From Escherichia phage T4, in the sequence record NC_000866.4: a stretch of 64,000 nt of DNA; one strand, 5' to 3'. Below the pieces are notes generated by a model. The model searched no databases. It saw only the letters and a list, made by a program, of their open reading frames with translations, and was not told the origin of the DNA. Position 1 is the stretch's first letter; each line of letters opens with the position of its first letter. Below are positions 7,173 through 8,530 of the stretch, one piece after another. A program made the translations under genes and the position numbers.

Positions 7173-7247
7173 TGGTATCCCGCCCTGGGATCGAACCAGG
7201 ACCGCAAACTTAGAAGGATCGTATGCTATCCATTACACCAGCGGGAC
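7173..7247 (-). tRNA. tRNA-Arg (anticodon TCT), CCA encoded
   Basis: reverse complement reads GTCCCGC...CCTTCTAAG...GGTTCGATCC...GCGGGATACCA with a paired acceptor stem and canonical T-arm. Confidence 0.85.
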
Positions 7248-7252
7248 GTAAT

Positions 7253-7918
7253 TTAAAATTTCATTTTTCGACCTTTAAACCATCCTTCTGGAATTGGGTC
7301 AGTTTTCTTAATACGTTTAGAAACTTTTTCATCTAATGAATGAATCCACATCATACCGAATTGGGAATTCTTTTCACCTTTCTGGTGATTATTTTTGGCG
7401 TGAGATTCTTTCATTTTATTAATAGTTTCAGGAGTATGATGCTTATTTAGAAATCTGCTATTATTTAAAAATTTTTCCCTGTATTCAGGAGTTGACCACA
7501 AACGTTTAAATACATTTGAACCAATTTTACGATATTTTTCTTGAAGTAAAATATCATTTTCAAAACGTGACTTAAACGATTTAGCTCCTTTTAAGCTAGC
7601 ATCTTTCTTCTGGTTTAGCATTCCAGGAATATTTACATGATCCCATCCACCTTCACCGCCAAGTTTTAAATTATACACATCTGGTCTATTTAAAAACTCT
7701 TCTGTGACAATATTTTTCTCGGCTTCAAGCATAGATTCTTTATCGTCAAAATACTCTAATATTTCTTTAGAAAAATTTTCTATACCATATTTATCTTGGG
7801 CTCTTTTTAATAATTTACCAGAACCCATATATCCATCATCTAAATTTTCGGTAGAATGCACACCAATATAAATTTTATTATTAATTTTATTTGTTATTTT
7901 ATAAGTGTAATAGAACAT
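7253..7918 (-). CDS. segB: GIY-YIG homing endonuclease
   Basis: 221-aa ORF with GIY-YIG motif (KIYIGVHSTENLDDGYMGSG); inserted between tRNA-Ile and tRNA-Arg as in T4. Confidence 0.85.
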   Translation of the reverse strand: MFYYTYKITNKINNKIYIGVHSTENLDDGYMGSGKLLKRAQDKYGIENFSKEILEYFDDKESMLEAEKNIVTEEFLNRPDVYNLKLGGEGGWDHVNIPGMLNQKKDASLKGAKSFKSRFENDILLQEKYRKIGSNVFKRLWSTPEYREKFLNNSRFLNKHHTPETINKMKESHAKNNHQKGEKNSQFGMMWIHSLDEKVSKRIKKTDPIPEGWFKGRKMKF

Positions 7919-7959
7919 AAATATCTCCTATTTCTAAGAGTATTTATGTTCTCAAAATA

Positions 7960-8033
7960 TGACCCAGACCAGATTTGAACTGGTAACCTTTCCCTTATGA
8001 GGGGACTGCTGCTAACCATTGAGCTACAGGGCC
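7960..8033 (-). tRNA. tRNA-Ile (anticodon CAT; would score as Met by anticodon alone)
   Basis: reverse complement GGCCCTGTAGCTCAATGG...CTCATAA...GGTTACCAGTTCAAATCTGGT; last tRNA of the 7-gene subcluster, the position of T4 tRNA-Ile. Confidence 0.8.
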
Positions 8034-8034
8034 T

Positions 8035-8110
8035 TGGTGCTGATTGACGGAATCGAACCGCCGACATCCTCATTACAAGTGAGGTGCTCTACCTACTGAG
8101 CTAAATCAGC
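8035..8110 (-). tRNA. tRNA-Thr (anticodon TGT), CCA encoded
   Basis: reverse complement GCTGATTTAGCTCAGTAGGTAGAGCACCTCACTTGTAATGAGG...GGTTCGATTCC...AATCAGCACCA; fully paired acceptor stem. Confidence 0.9.
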
Positions 8111-8117
8111 AAAATTA

Positions 8118-8204
8118 CGGAGGCGATAGGATTTGAACCTATGAGTCGCCGGAGCGACTGCCGGTTTTCAAGACCGGTGCATTAAACCACTCTGCCACGC
8201 CTCC
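8118..8204 (-). tRNA. tRNA-Ser (anticodon TGA), long variable arm
   Basis: reverse complement GGAGGCGTGGCAGAGTGG...CTTGAAA...GGTTCAAATCC...CGCCTCCG; acceptor stem GGAGGCG/CGCCTCC. Confidence 0.9.
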
Positions 8205-8206
8205 AG

Positions 8207-8280
8207 TCTCCATACAAGGATTTGAACCTTGGACCTCCTGATCCCAAATCAGGCGCTCTACCAAACTGAGCTACACGGAG
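8207..8280 (-). tRNA. tRNA-Pro (anticodon TGG)
   Basis: reverse complement CTCCGTGTAGCTCAGTTTGGTAGAGCGCCTGATTTGGGATCAGG...GGTTCAAATCC; anticodon stem CCTGA/TCAGG. Confidence 0.85.
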
Positions 8281-8290
8281 TAAATTAAAT

Positions 8291-8364
8291 TGGAGCGGAT
8301 AATGAGAATCGAACTCACATCATCAGATTGGAAGTCTGAGGTAATACCATTATACGATATCCGC
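8291..8364 (-). tRNA. tRNA-Gly (anticodon TCC), CCA encoded
   Basis: reverse complement GCGGATATCGTATAATGGTATTACCTCAGACTTCCAATCTGA...GAGTTCGATTCTC...TATCCGCTCCA; perfect acceptor stem. Confidence 0.9.
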
Positions 8365-8369
8365 AAATT

Positions 8370-8456
8370 TGGTGCGAGAAGTGGGACTCGAACCCACAAG
8401 GAAATCATTCCGCAGCATTTTAAGTGCTGTGCCTTTACCAATTTGACCATTCTCGC
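8370..8456 (-). tRNA. tRNA-Leu (anticodon TAA), long variable arm, CCA encoded
   Basis: reverse complement GCGAGAATGGTCAAATTGGTAAAGGCACAGCACTTAAAATGCTG...GGGTTCGAGTCCC...TTCTCGCACCA. Confidence 0.9.
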
Positions 8457-8457
8457 G

Positions 8458-8530
8458 CTGGGAATAAAGGACTCGAACCTTTGCATCTAGCAGTCAAAGT
8501 GCTATGCCTTACCAACTTGGCTAATTCCCA
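8458..8530 (-). tRNA. tRNA-Gln (anticodon TTG)
   Basis: reverse complement TGGGAATTAGCCAAGTTGGTAAGGCATAGCACTTTGACTGCTA...AGGTTCGAGTCCT...ATTCCCAG. Confidence 0.9.

What the first reader, a model, noticed from the sequence alone, without database searches (positions are those of the whole stretch)
7173..8530. Eight-tRNA cluster interrupted by the segB homing endonuclease; tRNA-Ile carries a CAT anticodon
Seven tRNAs (Gln, Leu, Gly, Pro, Ser, Thr, Ile) are packed with 0-10 nt spacers at 7960..8530 on the minus strand, then the 221-aa GIY-YIG gene segB, then tRNA-Arg. The arrangement implies multi-tRNA precursors that need host RNase P and RNase E processing, with a protein-coding mobile-element gene embedded in a stable-RNA operon. 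The tRNA with anticodon CAT occupies the T4 tRNA-Ile position and would have to be modified at the wobble base to read AUA rather than AUG. Anticodons UUG, UAA, UCC, UGG, UGA, UGU, CAU(Ile) and UCU all read A-ending or AT-rich codons favoured by the phage.
Basis: partly seen in the sequence, partly recalled or inferred. Interest (0 to 1): 0.45.

Follow-up and report, generated by a model that had tools for sequence, protein, structure and literature searches.

The report
Phage T4 tRNA cluster with segB
This is the textbook tRNA gene cluster of bacteriophage T4: eight tRNAs, two small stable RNAs and the SegB homing-endonuclease gene, all described in print, so the finding is correct but ordinary.

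Summary
ARAGORN and Rfam find eight tRNAs on the minus strand at the stated coordinates: Gln, Leu, Gly, Pro, Ser, Thr and CAU at 7960-8530, and Arg at 7173-7247. A 221-aa GIY-YIG ORF (7253-7918) lies between the CAU tRNA and Arg.

The window is phage T4 itself. It is 99.8% identical to T4 genome records, none of the differences lies in a tRNA or in segB, and window coordinate + 64000 equals the T4 coordinate.

The CAU tRNA carries the E. coli TilS determinants (C4-G69, C5-G68). It also carries the tabulated IleRS determinants checked here (A73, U12-A23, C29-G41, A35, U36, A37, A38); the D-loop ones were not checked. It lacks the elongator-Met and initiator signatures, so the tRNA-Ile2 reading holds.

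The eight cognate codons are 1.5-10 times more frequent in the window's ORFs than in an E. coli sample.

All of this is published: SegB homing (2008), SegB-driven amplification (2026), and CAU Ile tRNAs putatively lysidine-modified in T4-like phages (2006).

Side note: rnaC (function unknown) has a strongly covarying tRNA-like fold in six Tevenvirinae genera and no Rfam family.

Verdict: already known, low interest.

The parts
8600..8627 (-). Middle (MotA-dependent) promoter upstream of tRNA-Gln: MotA box aTATGCTTTA around 8627-8618 and a -10 element TATTAT around 8605-8600
   Evidence: Read from the sequence. Annotated as 'PM2' -35 and -10 in the T4 record X03016. PMC2330249 states that the cluster, including segB, is transcribed mainly from this middle promoter. 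Function was not tested here.
8458..8530 (-). tRNA-Gln (anticodon UUG); only C74 of the CCA end is encoded
   Evidence: (66.0 bits).
8370..8456 (-). tRNA-Leu (UAA), long variable arm, CCA encoded
   Evidence: (59.3 bits).
8291..8364 (-). tRNA-Gly (UCC), CCA encoded
   Evidence: (65.8 bits).
8207..8280 (-). tRNA-Pro (UGG), no CCA encoded; 2 nt separate its discriminator base from tRNA-Ser
   Evidence: (66.8 bits). The Pro-Ser dimeric precursor is described in PMC11143913.
8118..8204 (-). tRNA-Ser (UGA), followed by UAA instead of CCA
   Evidence: (62.6 bits). The UAA in place of CCA is described in PMC11143913.
8035..8110 (-). tRNA-Thr (UGU), CCA encoded
   Evidence: (75.4 bits).
7960..8033 (-). 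tRNA-Ile2-type tRNA (gene anticodon CAT, C34 presumed converted to lysidine); no CCA encoded; non-Watson-Crick positions G2.U71, U6.U67, C13.C22 and G27.A43
   Evidence: 53.9 bits; identity elements. Annotated tRNA-Ile in T4 records. PMC1524935 lists it as a putative lysidine-modified Ile tRNA.
7912..7952 (-). RNA hairpin that pairs both the segB Shine-Dalgarno sequence (UAGGAG) and the AUG; presumed translational brake on segB
   Evidence: Fold of -19.4 kcal/mol, z = -5.3, 0 of 200 shuffles as stable. It is the same element as T4 71912-71952 in PMC2330249.
7253..7918 (-). segB, a 221-aa free-standing GIY-YIG homing endonuclease
   Evidence: ORF; Pfam GIY-YIG above its cut-off; DNA identical to annotated T4 segB; biochemistry and homing in PMC2330249.
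7173..7247 (-). tRNA-Arg (UCU), CCA encoded; its 5' end lies 5 nt after the segB stop codon
   Evidence: (48.8 bits).
7053..7171 (-). rnaD (species 2 stable RNA), function unknown; ends ...GCGCACCA
   Evidence: T4 annotation; sequence. The predicted fold is not distinguishable from shuffles (z = -0.83).
6908..7046 (-). rnaC (species 1 stable RNA), function unknown; tRNA-like four-arm fold with a canonical T arm
   Evidence: T4 annotation; fold z = -4.6; covariation in 10 phages from 6 genera; no Rfam family at E <= 1.
6834..6857 (-). Intrinsic terminator of the unit (10-bp stem, 7 G-C pairs, U tract)
   Evidence: annotated as a potential terminator in X03016.

Best explanation

Transcription. 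One transcript of about 1.75 kb starts at a middle promoter upstream of tRNA-Gln. It carries seven tRNAs (Gln, Leu, Gly, Pro, Ser, Thr, Ile), the segB mRNA, tRNA-Arg and the two stable RNAs rnaD and rnaC, and it ends at an intrinsic terminator.

Processing. Host enzymes cut it up. RNase P makes the 5' ends, in part from dimeric precursors. 3' trimming and the CCA-adding enzyme finish the four tRNAs that lack an encoded CCA.

Decoding. The eight tRNAs read A-ending codons (CAA, UUA, GGA, CCA, UCA, ACA, AUA, AGA). These are common in the AT-rich phage genes and rare in E. coli. The tRNAs therefore supplement, and probably replace during host tRNA decay, the host decoding capacity.

The CAU tRNA. 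It is an isoleucine tRNA of the tRNA-Ile2 type. Host TilS is expected to convert C34 to lysidine, which switches charging from Met to Ile and reading from AUG to AUA.

SegB. It is a free-standing GIY-YIG homing endonuclease whose recognition core is the DNA that encodes the tRNA T-arm. In mixed infections it cuts the tRNA region of relatives that lack segB, and repair copies segB and its neighbouring tRNA genes into them. Its own expression is held down by a hairpin over its ribosome-binding site and start codon.

What was shown here: the gene content, identity with T4, the tRNA identity elements, the codon bias, the hairpin, the terminator and the SegB core motifs. What is taken from the literature: transcription, processing, homing and the lysidine assignment.
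For: - Gene content: eight tRNAs at the stated coordinates.
- Identity with T4: 99.8% over 2 kb and 5 kb. The only differences from MT984581 in window 5200-10199, apart from the two alignment ends, are at 5291, 6346, 6860, 6862 and 7130, none in a tRNA or in segB. The T4 annotation is identical in order and includes segB, rnaC and rnaD.
- SegB: Pfam GIY-YIG domain above its cut-off.
- CAU tRNA: C4-G69, C5-G68, U12-A23, C29-G41, loop CUCAUAA and A73, as in E. coli ileX and unlike metT and metV. Determinant lists come from PMC9976931 and PMC12514573. PMC1524935 states that every T4-like genome with tRNAs has such a CAU Ile tRNA. T2, PG7, Kc304 and KaAlpha also carry GGCCC... CAU tRNAs.
- Codon bias: the cognate codons are 1.5-10.1 times enriched per 1000 codons against 42 E. 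coli K-12 CDS, and AGA, ATA, TCA, GGA and ACA are the top five of all 61 codons.
- CCA ends: encoded for Leu, Gly, Thr and Arg only. Dimeric precursors, RNase P and the CCA requirement are in PMC11143913.
- segB hairpin: -19.4 kcal/mol, z = -5.3.
- Terminator at 6834-6857.
- SegB core motif GGTTCRANTCC: 7 matches in the window against 0.17 expected, 6 of them in this unit.
- SegB biochemistry, homing, the single ~1.75-kb transcript and the hairpin: PMC2330249.
- T2 lacks segB at this locus and has a different tRNA set there.
- The T4 tRNAs are expressed early and keep increasing while host tRNAs decay (PMC9697503).
Against: Nothing found here contradicts it. Lysidine on the T4 tRNA is inferred from identity elements and from the literature's 'putative' assignment; no modification data were available. 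The T4 Ile tRNA has four non-Watson-Crick positions (U6.U67, G2.U71, C13.C22, G27.A43) that ileX lacks, and their effect on TilS or IleRS recognition is untested. RNase E participation could not be documented. The codon comparison used mechanical ORFs of one 64-kb window and one 50-kb E. coli sample, not whole genomes or expression classes.
Confidence: 0.96

Rival explanations
1. The CAT tRNA is an ordinary elongator (or initiator) methionine tRNA, as ARAGORN and many automatic phage annotations label it.
For: ARAGORN calls it tRNA-Met. Several T4 and T4-like records annotate 'tRNA-Met' at this position. The anticodon loop CUCAUAA is identical in ileX, metT and metV.
Against: It lacks the tabulated MetRS acceptor-stem determinants U4-A69 and A5-U68. 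It carries the TilS determinants C4-G69 and C5-G68 plus the IleRS determinants U12-A23 and C29-G41. It has a paired G1-C72 and C-G rather than G-C pairs at 29-31/39-41, so it is not an initiator. Curated T4 records call it tRNA-Ile. PMC1524935 makes the same argument.
Confidence: 0.03
2. The main selective value of the cluster is counter-defence rather than codon supplementation. The phage tRNAs replace host tRNAs that are degraded during infection or cut by tRNA-targeting immune nucleases. SegB is a domesticated tool that amplifies such genes, not merely a selfish passenger. This overlaps with the best explanation and does not exclude it.
For: Host tRNAs decay during T4 infection while the T4 tRNAs rise (PMC9697503). 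In T6, SegB-driven amplification of the neighbouring tRNA-Tyr gene overcomes Septu, and a T4 segB deletion mutant fails to amplify tifA under ToxIN pressure (PMC13096335). segB homologues are significantly co-located with tRNA genes across phages. PMC10264068 proposes the general idea.
Against: The T4 set matches the codons most over-used by the phage relative to the host almost one for one, which is what codon supplementation predicts. No defence system is known to target these eight T4 isoacceptors. T4, which lacks tRNA-Tyr, could not escape Septu. Nothing in the sequence distinguishes the two roles.
Confidence: 0.3

Closest known systems
Bacteriophage T4 tRNA gene region (subclusters I and II, segB, rnaC, rnaD; GenBank X03016, MT984581, HM137666)
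   Same: It is the same locus. Identity is 99.8-100%, gene order and coordinates match (window + 64000 = T4 coordinate), and all eight tRNAs and segB are identical in sequence.
   Different: In the stretch compared (window 5200-10199), apart from the two alignment ends, there are five single-base differences from MT984581, at 5291, 6346, 6860, 6862 and 7130. Window position 7130 lies in rnaD and the others lie outside the RNA genes and segB. These probably reflect different sequencing versions of T4.
E. coli tRNA-Ile2 (ileX/ileY, anticodon k2C-A-U, TilS substrate)
   Same: CAU gene anticodon, loop CUCAUAA, G1-C72, C3-G70, C4-G69, C5-G68, U12-A23, C29-G41 and A73.
   Different: The T4 tRNA has G2.U71, U6.U67, C13.C22 and G27.A43 where ileX is fully paired. 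It has a 9-nt D loop and no encoded CCA. Overall similarity is low: blastn finds only 39-nt partial matches in E. coli genomes.
T2 / T2L tRNA region (segB-less allele, the natural SegB target)
   Same: The left half (Gln, Leu, Gly, Pro, Ser) and rnaC downstream are the same, on the same strand and in the same neighbourhood.
   Different: T2 has no segB and no Thr. It carries two unrelated ORFs, a different CAU tRNA, Tyr, Asn and a different Arg tRNA. This is the arrangement described in PMC2330249.
Other translationally masked T4 homing-endonuclease genes (I-TevI, I-TevII, I-TevIII)
   Same: A stable hairpin occludes the Shine-Dalgarno sequence and the start codon on read-through transcripts (PMC2330249).
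   Different: Those genes have a late or middle promoter inside or next to the hairpin that yields translatable mRNA. None has been mapped for segB. The only promoter-like box in the 5' arm, CATAAATA, occurs at chance frequency.

Membership tests
tRNA (Rfam RF00005) | Cloverleaf covariance-model score above the gathering threshold of 29 bits | tested here: met
   All eight score 48.8-75.4 bits. ARAGORN finds the same eight.
Phage T4 tRNA operon | Near-identical sequence and the order Gln-Leu-Gly-Pro-Ser-Thr-Ile-segB-Arg-rnaD-rnaC | tested here: met
   99.8% identity to T4 genomes and identical annotation order.
tRNA-Ile2 (lysidine-dependent AUA decoder) | CAU gene anticodon together with the E. 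coli TilS acceptor-stem determinants C4-G69 and C5-G68 | tested here: met
   the determinants are quoted in PMC12514573.
tRNA-Ile2 (lysidine-dependent AUA decoder) | Bacterial IleRS determinants A73, C4-G69, U12-A23, C29-G41, A35, U36, A37 and A38 | tested here: met
   All are present, against Table 1 of PMC9976931. The D-loop determinants G16, U20 and U21 were not assigned with confidence because the D loop has an extra base.
tRNA-Ile2 (lysidine-dependent AUA decoder) | Absence of MetRS acceptor determinants (U4-A69, A5-U68) and of initiator features (C1xA72 mismatch, G-C pairs at 29-31/39-41) | tested here: met
   The tRNA has C4-G69, C5-G68, a paired G1-C72 and C29-G41.
tRNA-Ile2 (lysidine-dependent AUA decoder) | Lysidine actually present at position 34, charging with Ile and reading of AUA | not testable with these tools
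   This needs RNA mass spectrometry or aminoacylation assays. PMC1524935 calls it 'putative'. From my own memory, classic codon-binding work (Scherberg and Weiss 1972) reported AUA reading, but that paper is not held.
GIY-YIG homing endonuclease (SegB) | N-terminal GIY-YIG catalytic domain | tested here: met
   PF01541, 28.3 bits against a cut-off of 22.6, residues 3-71.
GIY-YIG homing endonuclease (SegB) | Free-standing gene that is present or absent among close relatives at an otherwise homologous locus | tested here: met
   T2 has the homologous tRNA locus without segB. Only 110 of 894 matching phage records cover at least 80% of the 2-kb query in one place.
GIY-YIG homing endonuclease (SegB) | Site-specific cleavage of the segB-less allele and biased inheritance | not testable with these tools
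   Shown experimentally for this very gene in PMC2330249. Here only the core motif GGTTCRANTCC was located: 6 copies in the unit, against 0.17 expected for the whole window.

The most novel reading that the evidence does not exclude
The least-understood members of this operon are rnaC (species 1 RNA) and rnaD, not the eight tRNAs. rnaC has a strongly covarying tRNA-like fold. It has an acceptor-like stem with two conserved U.U pairs, a long arm in the D-arm position, a 10-bp arm capped by a near-invariant 6-nt loop CGUCAA instead of an anticodon loop, and a canonical T arm. It is conserved next to tRNA genes in six Tevenvirinae genera. It could be a functional tRNA mimic, for example a decoy or sensor for tRNA-binding host factors or tRNA-targeting defence nucleases. 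That would make the cluster a mixed decoding and counter-defence island. The RNA has been known since the 1970s, but its function is still called unknown in 2022 and it has no Rfam family.
Probability: 0.1. Interest if true: 0.55.

Novelty: already known. Interest (0 to 1): 0.08.

Why it matters
For the finding itself, little. It re-describes one of the oldest characterised phage loci. The eight T4 tRNAs were reported in 1972, the region was sequenced by 1985, SegB homing was shown in 2008, and SegB-driven amplification of anti-defence genes was shown in 2026. Its use is as a positive control: the first-stage reader recognised a real, densely packed stable-RNA operon with an embedded mobile gene and correctly re-assigned a 'Met' anticodon to Ile. 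The open questions are narrow. There is no direct chemical proof here of lysidine on the T4 tRNA. The role of that tRNA's unusual mismatches is unknown. How segB mRNA is ever translated is unresolved. The functions of rnaC and rnaD are unknown.

Tried and rejected
- **E. coli relatives of the CAU tRNA.** A blastn search of 5,426 E. coli genomes gave only five 39-nt partial matches, all annotated tRNA-Ile. This is suggestive but too weak to use, so I compared identity elements position by position instead.
- **Classic papers.** I tried to read Miller 2003 (PMC150520), Scherberg and Weiss 1972 (PMC426642) and McClain 1972 (PMC389853). None is held.
- **RNase E.** A search for documentation of RNase E in T4 tRNA processing found nothing, and the T4 post-transcriptional review has no tRNA-processing text.
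- **Hidden late promoter in the segB hairpin.** CATAAATA at 7941-7948 is a 7-of-8 match to the late-promoter consensus and is well placed, but the octamer occurs 6 times in the window against 7.3 expected. PMC2330249 reports no mapped promoter. Rejected as evidence.
- **SegB core motif outside the cluster.** The copy at 33590-33600 lies antisense inside gene 17, the terminase large subunit. It was treated as a probable chance match.
- **rnaD structure.** The MFE is not better than shuffles (z = -0.83), so no structural claim is made.
- **Sigma-70 promoter scan.** The scan of the region gave fewer hits than shuffles (4 against 6.1) and is uninformative for T4 middle and late promoters.
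Full report
**Observation.** ARAGORN on the whole window finds eight tRNA genes and no more.
- Arg(tct) 7173-7247
- a CAT-anticodon tRNA 7960-8033
- Thr(tgt) 8035-8110
- Ser(tga) 8117-8205
- Pro(tgg) 8206-8280
- Gly(tcc) 8291-8364
- Leu(taa) 8370-8456
- Gln(ttg) 8457-8530

Rfam's tRNA model matches all eight at 48.8-75.4 bits against a gathering score of 29, with E-values from 2e-8 to 9e-16. 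The ORF between the CAT tRNA and tRNA-Arg is 221 aa (7253-7918, minus strand). It matches the Pfam GIY-YIG catalytic domain above its curated cut-off. Spacers between the seven packed tRNAs are 0-10 nt.

**Source of the sequence.** A 2-kb query around the cluster is 99.8% identical over its full length to many phage T4 genome records. In a base-by-base comparison of window 5200-10199 with MT984581, apart from the two alignment ends, the differences are at 5291, 6346, 6860, 6862 and 7130. None lies in a tRNA or in segB. The T4 records annotate the same objects in the same order:
- tRNA-Gln, Leu, Gly, Pro, Ser, Thr and Ile
- segB, described as 'GIY-YIG family; site-specific homing DNA endonuclease'
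- tRNA-Arg
- rnaD (species 2 RNA) and rnaC (species 1 RNA)

The hairpin that the SegB paper places at T4 71912-71952 is at window 7912-7952. So the window coordinate plus 64000 is the T4 genome coordinate.

**Identity of the CAT tRNA.** I laid it out in cloverleaf register beside E. coli K-12 ileX, metT/metU and the initiator metV, taken from NC_000913.3.
- The T4 tRNA has G1-C72, C3-G70, C4-G69, C5-G68, U12-A23, C29-G41, the loop CUCAUAA and A73. That is the ileX pattern.
- metT has U4-A69, A5-U68 and U29-A41.
- metV has the C1xA72 mismatch and G-C pairs in the anticodon stem.

C4-G69 and C5-G68 are the dominant E. coli TilS identity elements (Ikeuchi et al., as quoted in PMC12514573). A73, C4-G69, U12-A23, C29-G41, A35, U36, A37 and A38 are among the tabulated bacterial IleRS determinants, and U4-A69 and A5-U68 are MetRS determinants (PMC9976931). 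The table also lists the D-loop determinants G16, U20 and U21, which I could not assign with confidence. So the tRNA-Ile2 reading is supported and the Met and initiator readings are not.

This has been published. Nolan et al. 2006 state that every T4-like genome with tRNAs has a CAU tRNA sharing IleRS signatures, and they list T4's as 'Ile CAU*' (PMC1524935). The CAU tRNAs of T2, PG7, Kc304 and KaAlpha that begin GGCCC... follow the same pattern. Lysidine itself cannot be seen in DNA, so that step remains inferred. The T4 tRNA has four non-Watson-Crick positions (G2.U71, U6.U67, C13.C22, G27.A43) that ileX lacks.

**Codon claim.** I counted codons in 63 non-overlapping ORFs of at least 100 aa from the window (18,958 codons). 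I compared them with 42 annotated CDS of a 50-kb E. coli K-12 stretch. Enrichment per 1000 codons in the phage ORFs is:

| Codon | Enrichment |
|---|---|
| AGA | 10.1x |
| ATA | 6.5x |
| TCA | 4.0x |
| GGA | 3.9x |
| ACA | 3.8x |
| TTA | 3.1x |
| CCA | 1.9x |
| CAA | 1.5x |

The first five are the five most enriched of all 61 sense codons. The claim holds. It is the classical explanation for the T4 tRNAs (PMC1524935; PMC4810235).

**Processing.** From the sequence, CCA is encoded for Leu, Gly, Thr and Arg only. Gln and Pro are followed by a single C, Ser by UAA and Ile by UAU. This matches the literature: eight T4 tRNA genes, six of them in dimeric precursors, and a Pro-Ser precursor that lacks both CCA ends and carries UAA after Ser. 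RNase P cleavage is favoured once CCA has been added, and the host nucleotidyltransferase is needed for some T4 tRNAs (PMC11143913). RNase III involvement is cited in PMC4810235.

**segB inside a stable-RNA operon.** This is the subject of Brok-Volchanskaya et al. 2008 (PMC2330249).
- SegB is a site-specific endonuclease that recognises 27 bp. The core of the site, GGTTCRANTCC, is the DNA that encodes the T-arm.
- Its preferred site is the tRNA-Asn gene of T2L, RB1 and RB3, which lack segB.
- In T4 x T2L crosses, segB is inherited at nearly 100% and T2L markers are lost.
- The authors state that segB is transcribed as part of a ~1.75-kb primary transcript from the middle promoter upstream of the cluster, ending after species I RNA.
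- They propose that translation is held down by a hairpin over the Shine-Dalgarno sequence and the AUG, and by processing at the segB/tRNA-Arg junction.

I reproduced the sequence-level parts.
- The hairpin at 7912-7952 folds at -19.4 kcal/mol (z = -5.3). UAGGAG and AUG are both paired.
- A strong terminator lies at 6834-6857.
- The MotA-box promoter is annotated in X03016 and readable at 8600-8627.
- The exact SegB core motif occurs 7 times in the window against 0.17 expected. Five copies are in tRNAs (Gln, Leu, Pro, Ser, Thr), one is in rnaC and one is antisense in gene 17.
- The two tRNAs that flank segB, Ile and Arg, as well as Gly, lack the exact motif.
- T2 (LC348380) has the homologous locus without segB and with a different right-hand tRNA set: a CAU tRNA, Tyr, Asn, Arg and two ORFs.

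[quoted passage not shown] It also reports that a T4 segB deletion mutant cannot amplify tifA under ToxIN pressure, and that segB homologues are significantly co-located with tRNA genes (PMC13096335).

The transcription unit continues beyond 7173 to rnaD (7053-7171), rnaC (6908-7046) and the terminator.

**Side observation on rnaC.** A 2022 study still describes RNAC and RNAD as 'RNAs of yet unknown functions' (PMC9697503). No Rfam family matches either of them at E <= 1.
- rnaC folds well (-50.2 kcal/mol, z = -4.6) into a tRNA-like shape.
- It has an acceptor-like stem (CGAUUCG/CGUUUCG, with two U.U pairs) and a long arm where the D arm would be.
- It has a 10-bp arm with the 6-nt loop CGUCAA, and a canonical T arm.
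- Homologues occur in or next to tRNA clusters in Tequatro-, Mosig-, Karam-, Winkler-, Teguna- and Kanagawavirus.
- ARAGORN even calls the PG7 copy a 95-nt 'tRNA-Met'.
- On a 10-sequence alignment, 94.7% of cells form standard pairs. 24 of 47 pairs show changes on both sides. No shuffle out of 500 reaches the observed values, and slid controls give about 40% pairing. The structure was taken from the T4 MFE fold, which by itself favours it over the slid controls.
- rnaD shows no significant fold (z = -0.83).

This is a real, conserved structured RNA, but it is a long-known one, and I did not establish a function.

**Verdict.** The locus is the T4 tRNA operon exactly as already described, so novelty is 'already known' and interest is low. 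The residual unknowns lie outside the finding as written: chemical proof of lysidine on the phage tRNA, how segB mRNA becomes translatable, and what rnaC and rnaD do.

Noticed in passing
window 6908-7046 (minus); homologues L007:1501-1651, L008:1501-1656, L009:~1425-1570, L010-L015: rnaC (T4 species 1 RNA, function unknown) has a tRNA-like four-arm fold. It has a canonical T arm, an acceptor-like stem with two conserved U.U pairs and a near-invariant 6-nt loop CGUCAA. Covariation in six Tevenvirinae genera supports the fold: 24 of 47 pairs change on both sides and 0 of 500 shuffles reach the observed values. No Rfam family matches it. ARAGORN calls the PG7 copy a 95-nt tRNA-Met.
   Followed up: partly
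window 7053-7171 (minus): rnaD (species 2 RNA, function unknown) starts right after the CCA of tRNA-Arg and itself ends ...GCGCACCA, like a tRNA 3' end. Its predicted fold is no better than shuffles (z = -0.83). Its 3'-terminal sequence (GAAACGGCGCAC...) was seen upstream of rnaC in the Tequatrovirus and Mosigvirus loci aligned here. In the Karamvirus and Winklervirus loci rnaC follows a sequence ending ...CCA instead.
   Followed up: partly
window 7960-8033 (minus): The T4 tRNA-Ile(CAU) has four non-Watson-Crick positions (G2.U71, U6.U67, C13.C22, G27.A43) and no encoded CCA. In the CAU Ile-type tRNAs of T2 and Kc304 the acceptor-stem 6-67 position is a standard pair and CCA is encoded. The consequences for TilS or IleRS recognition, or for stability, are unknown.
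   Followed up: partly
window 7941-7948 (minus), inside the 5' arm of the segB hairpin: CATAAATA is a 7-of-8 match to the T4 late-promoter box TATAAATA. It is placed so that a transcript starting just downstream would lack the arm that masks the segB start. The octamer occurs at chance frequency (6 found against 7.3 expected), and the literature reports no mapped promoter there.
   Followed up: partly
window 33590-33600 (minus): A seventh exact copy of the SegB core motif (GGTTCAAATCC) lies outside the tRNA cluster, antisense within gene 17, the terminase large subunit. It is probably chance. Whether SegB cuts there is unknown.
   Followed up: partly
window 6860, 6862, 7130 (also 5291, 6346): These are single-base differences between the window and the recent T4 record MT984581. 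The older record X03016 shares the difference at 6860, matches the window at 6862 and 7130, and differs at 6797-6798 and 7905. They look like sequencing-version differences in G+C-rich stems rather than biology.
   Followed up: yes
L017 (T2, LC348380 66300-69300), tRNA at 1338-1412: The T2 tRNA annotated 'tRNA-Met' (also called tRNA-Met for T2L in PMC2330249) begins GGCCCUG, with C4 and C5, the loop CUCAUAA and A73. It too looks like a lysidine-type tRNA-Ile rather than Met.
   Followed up: partly
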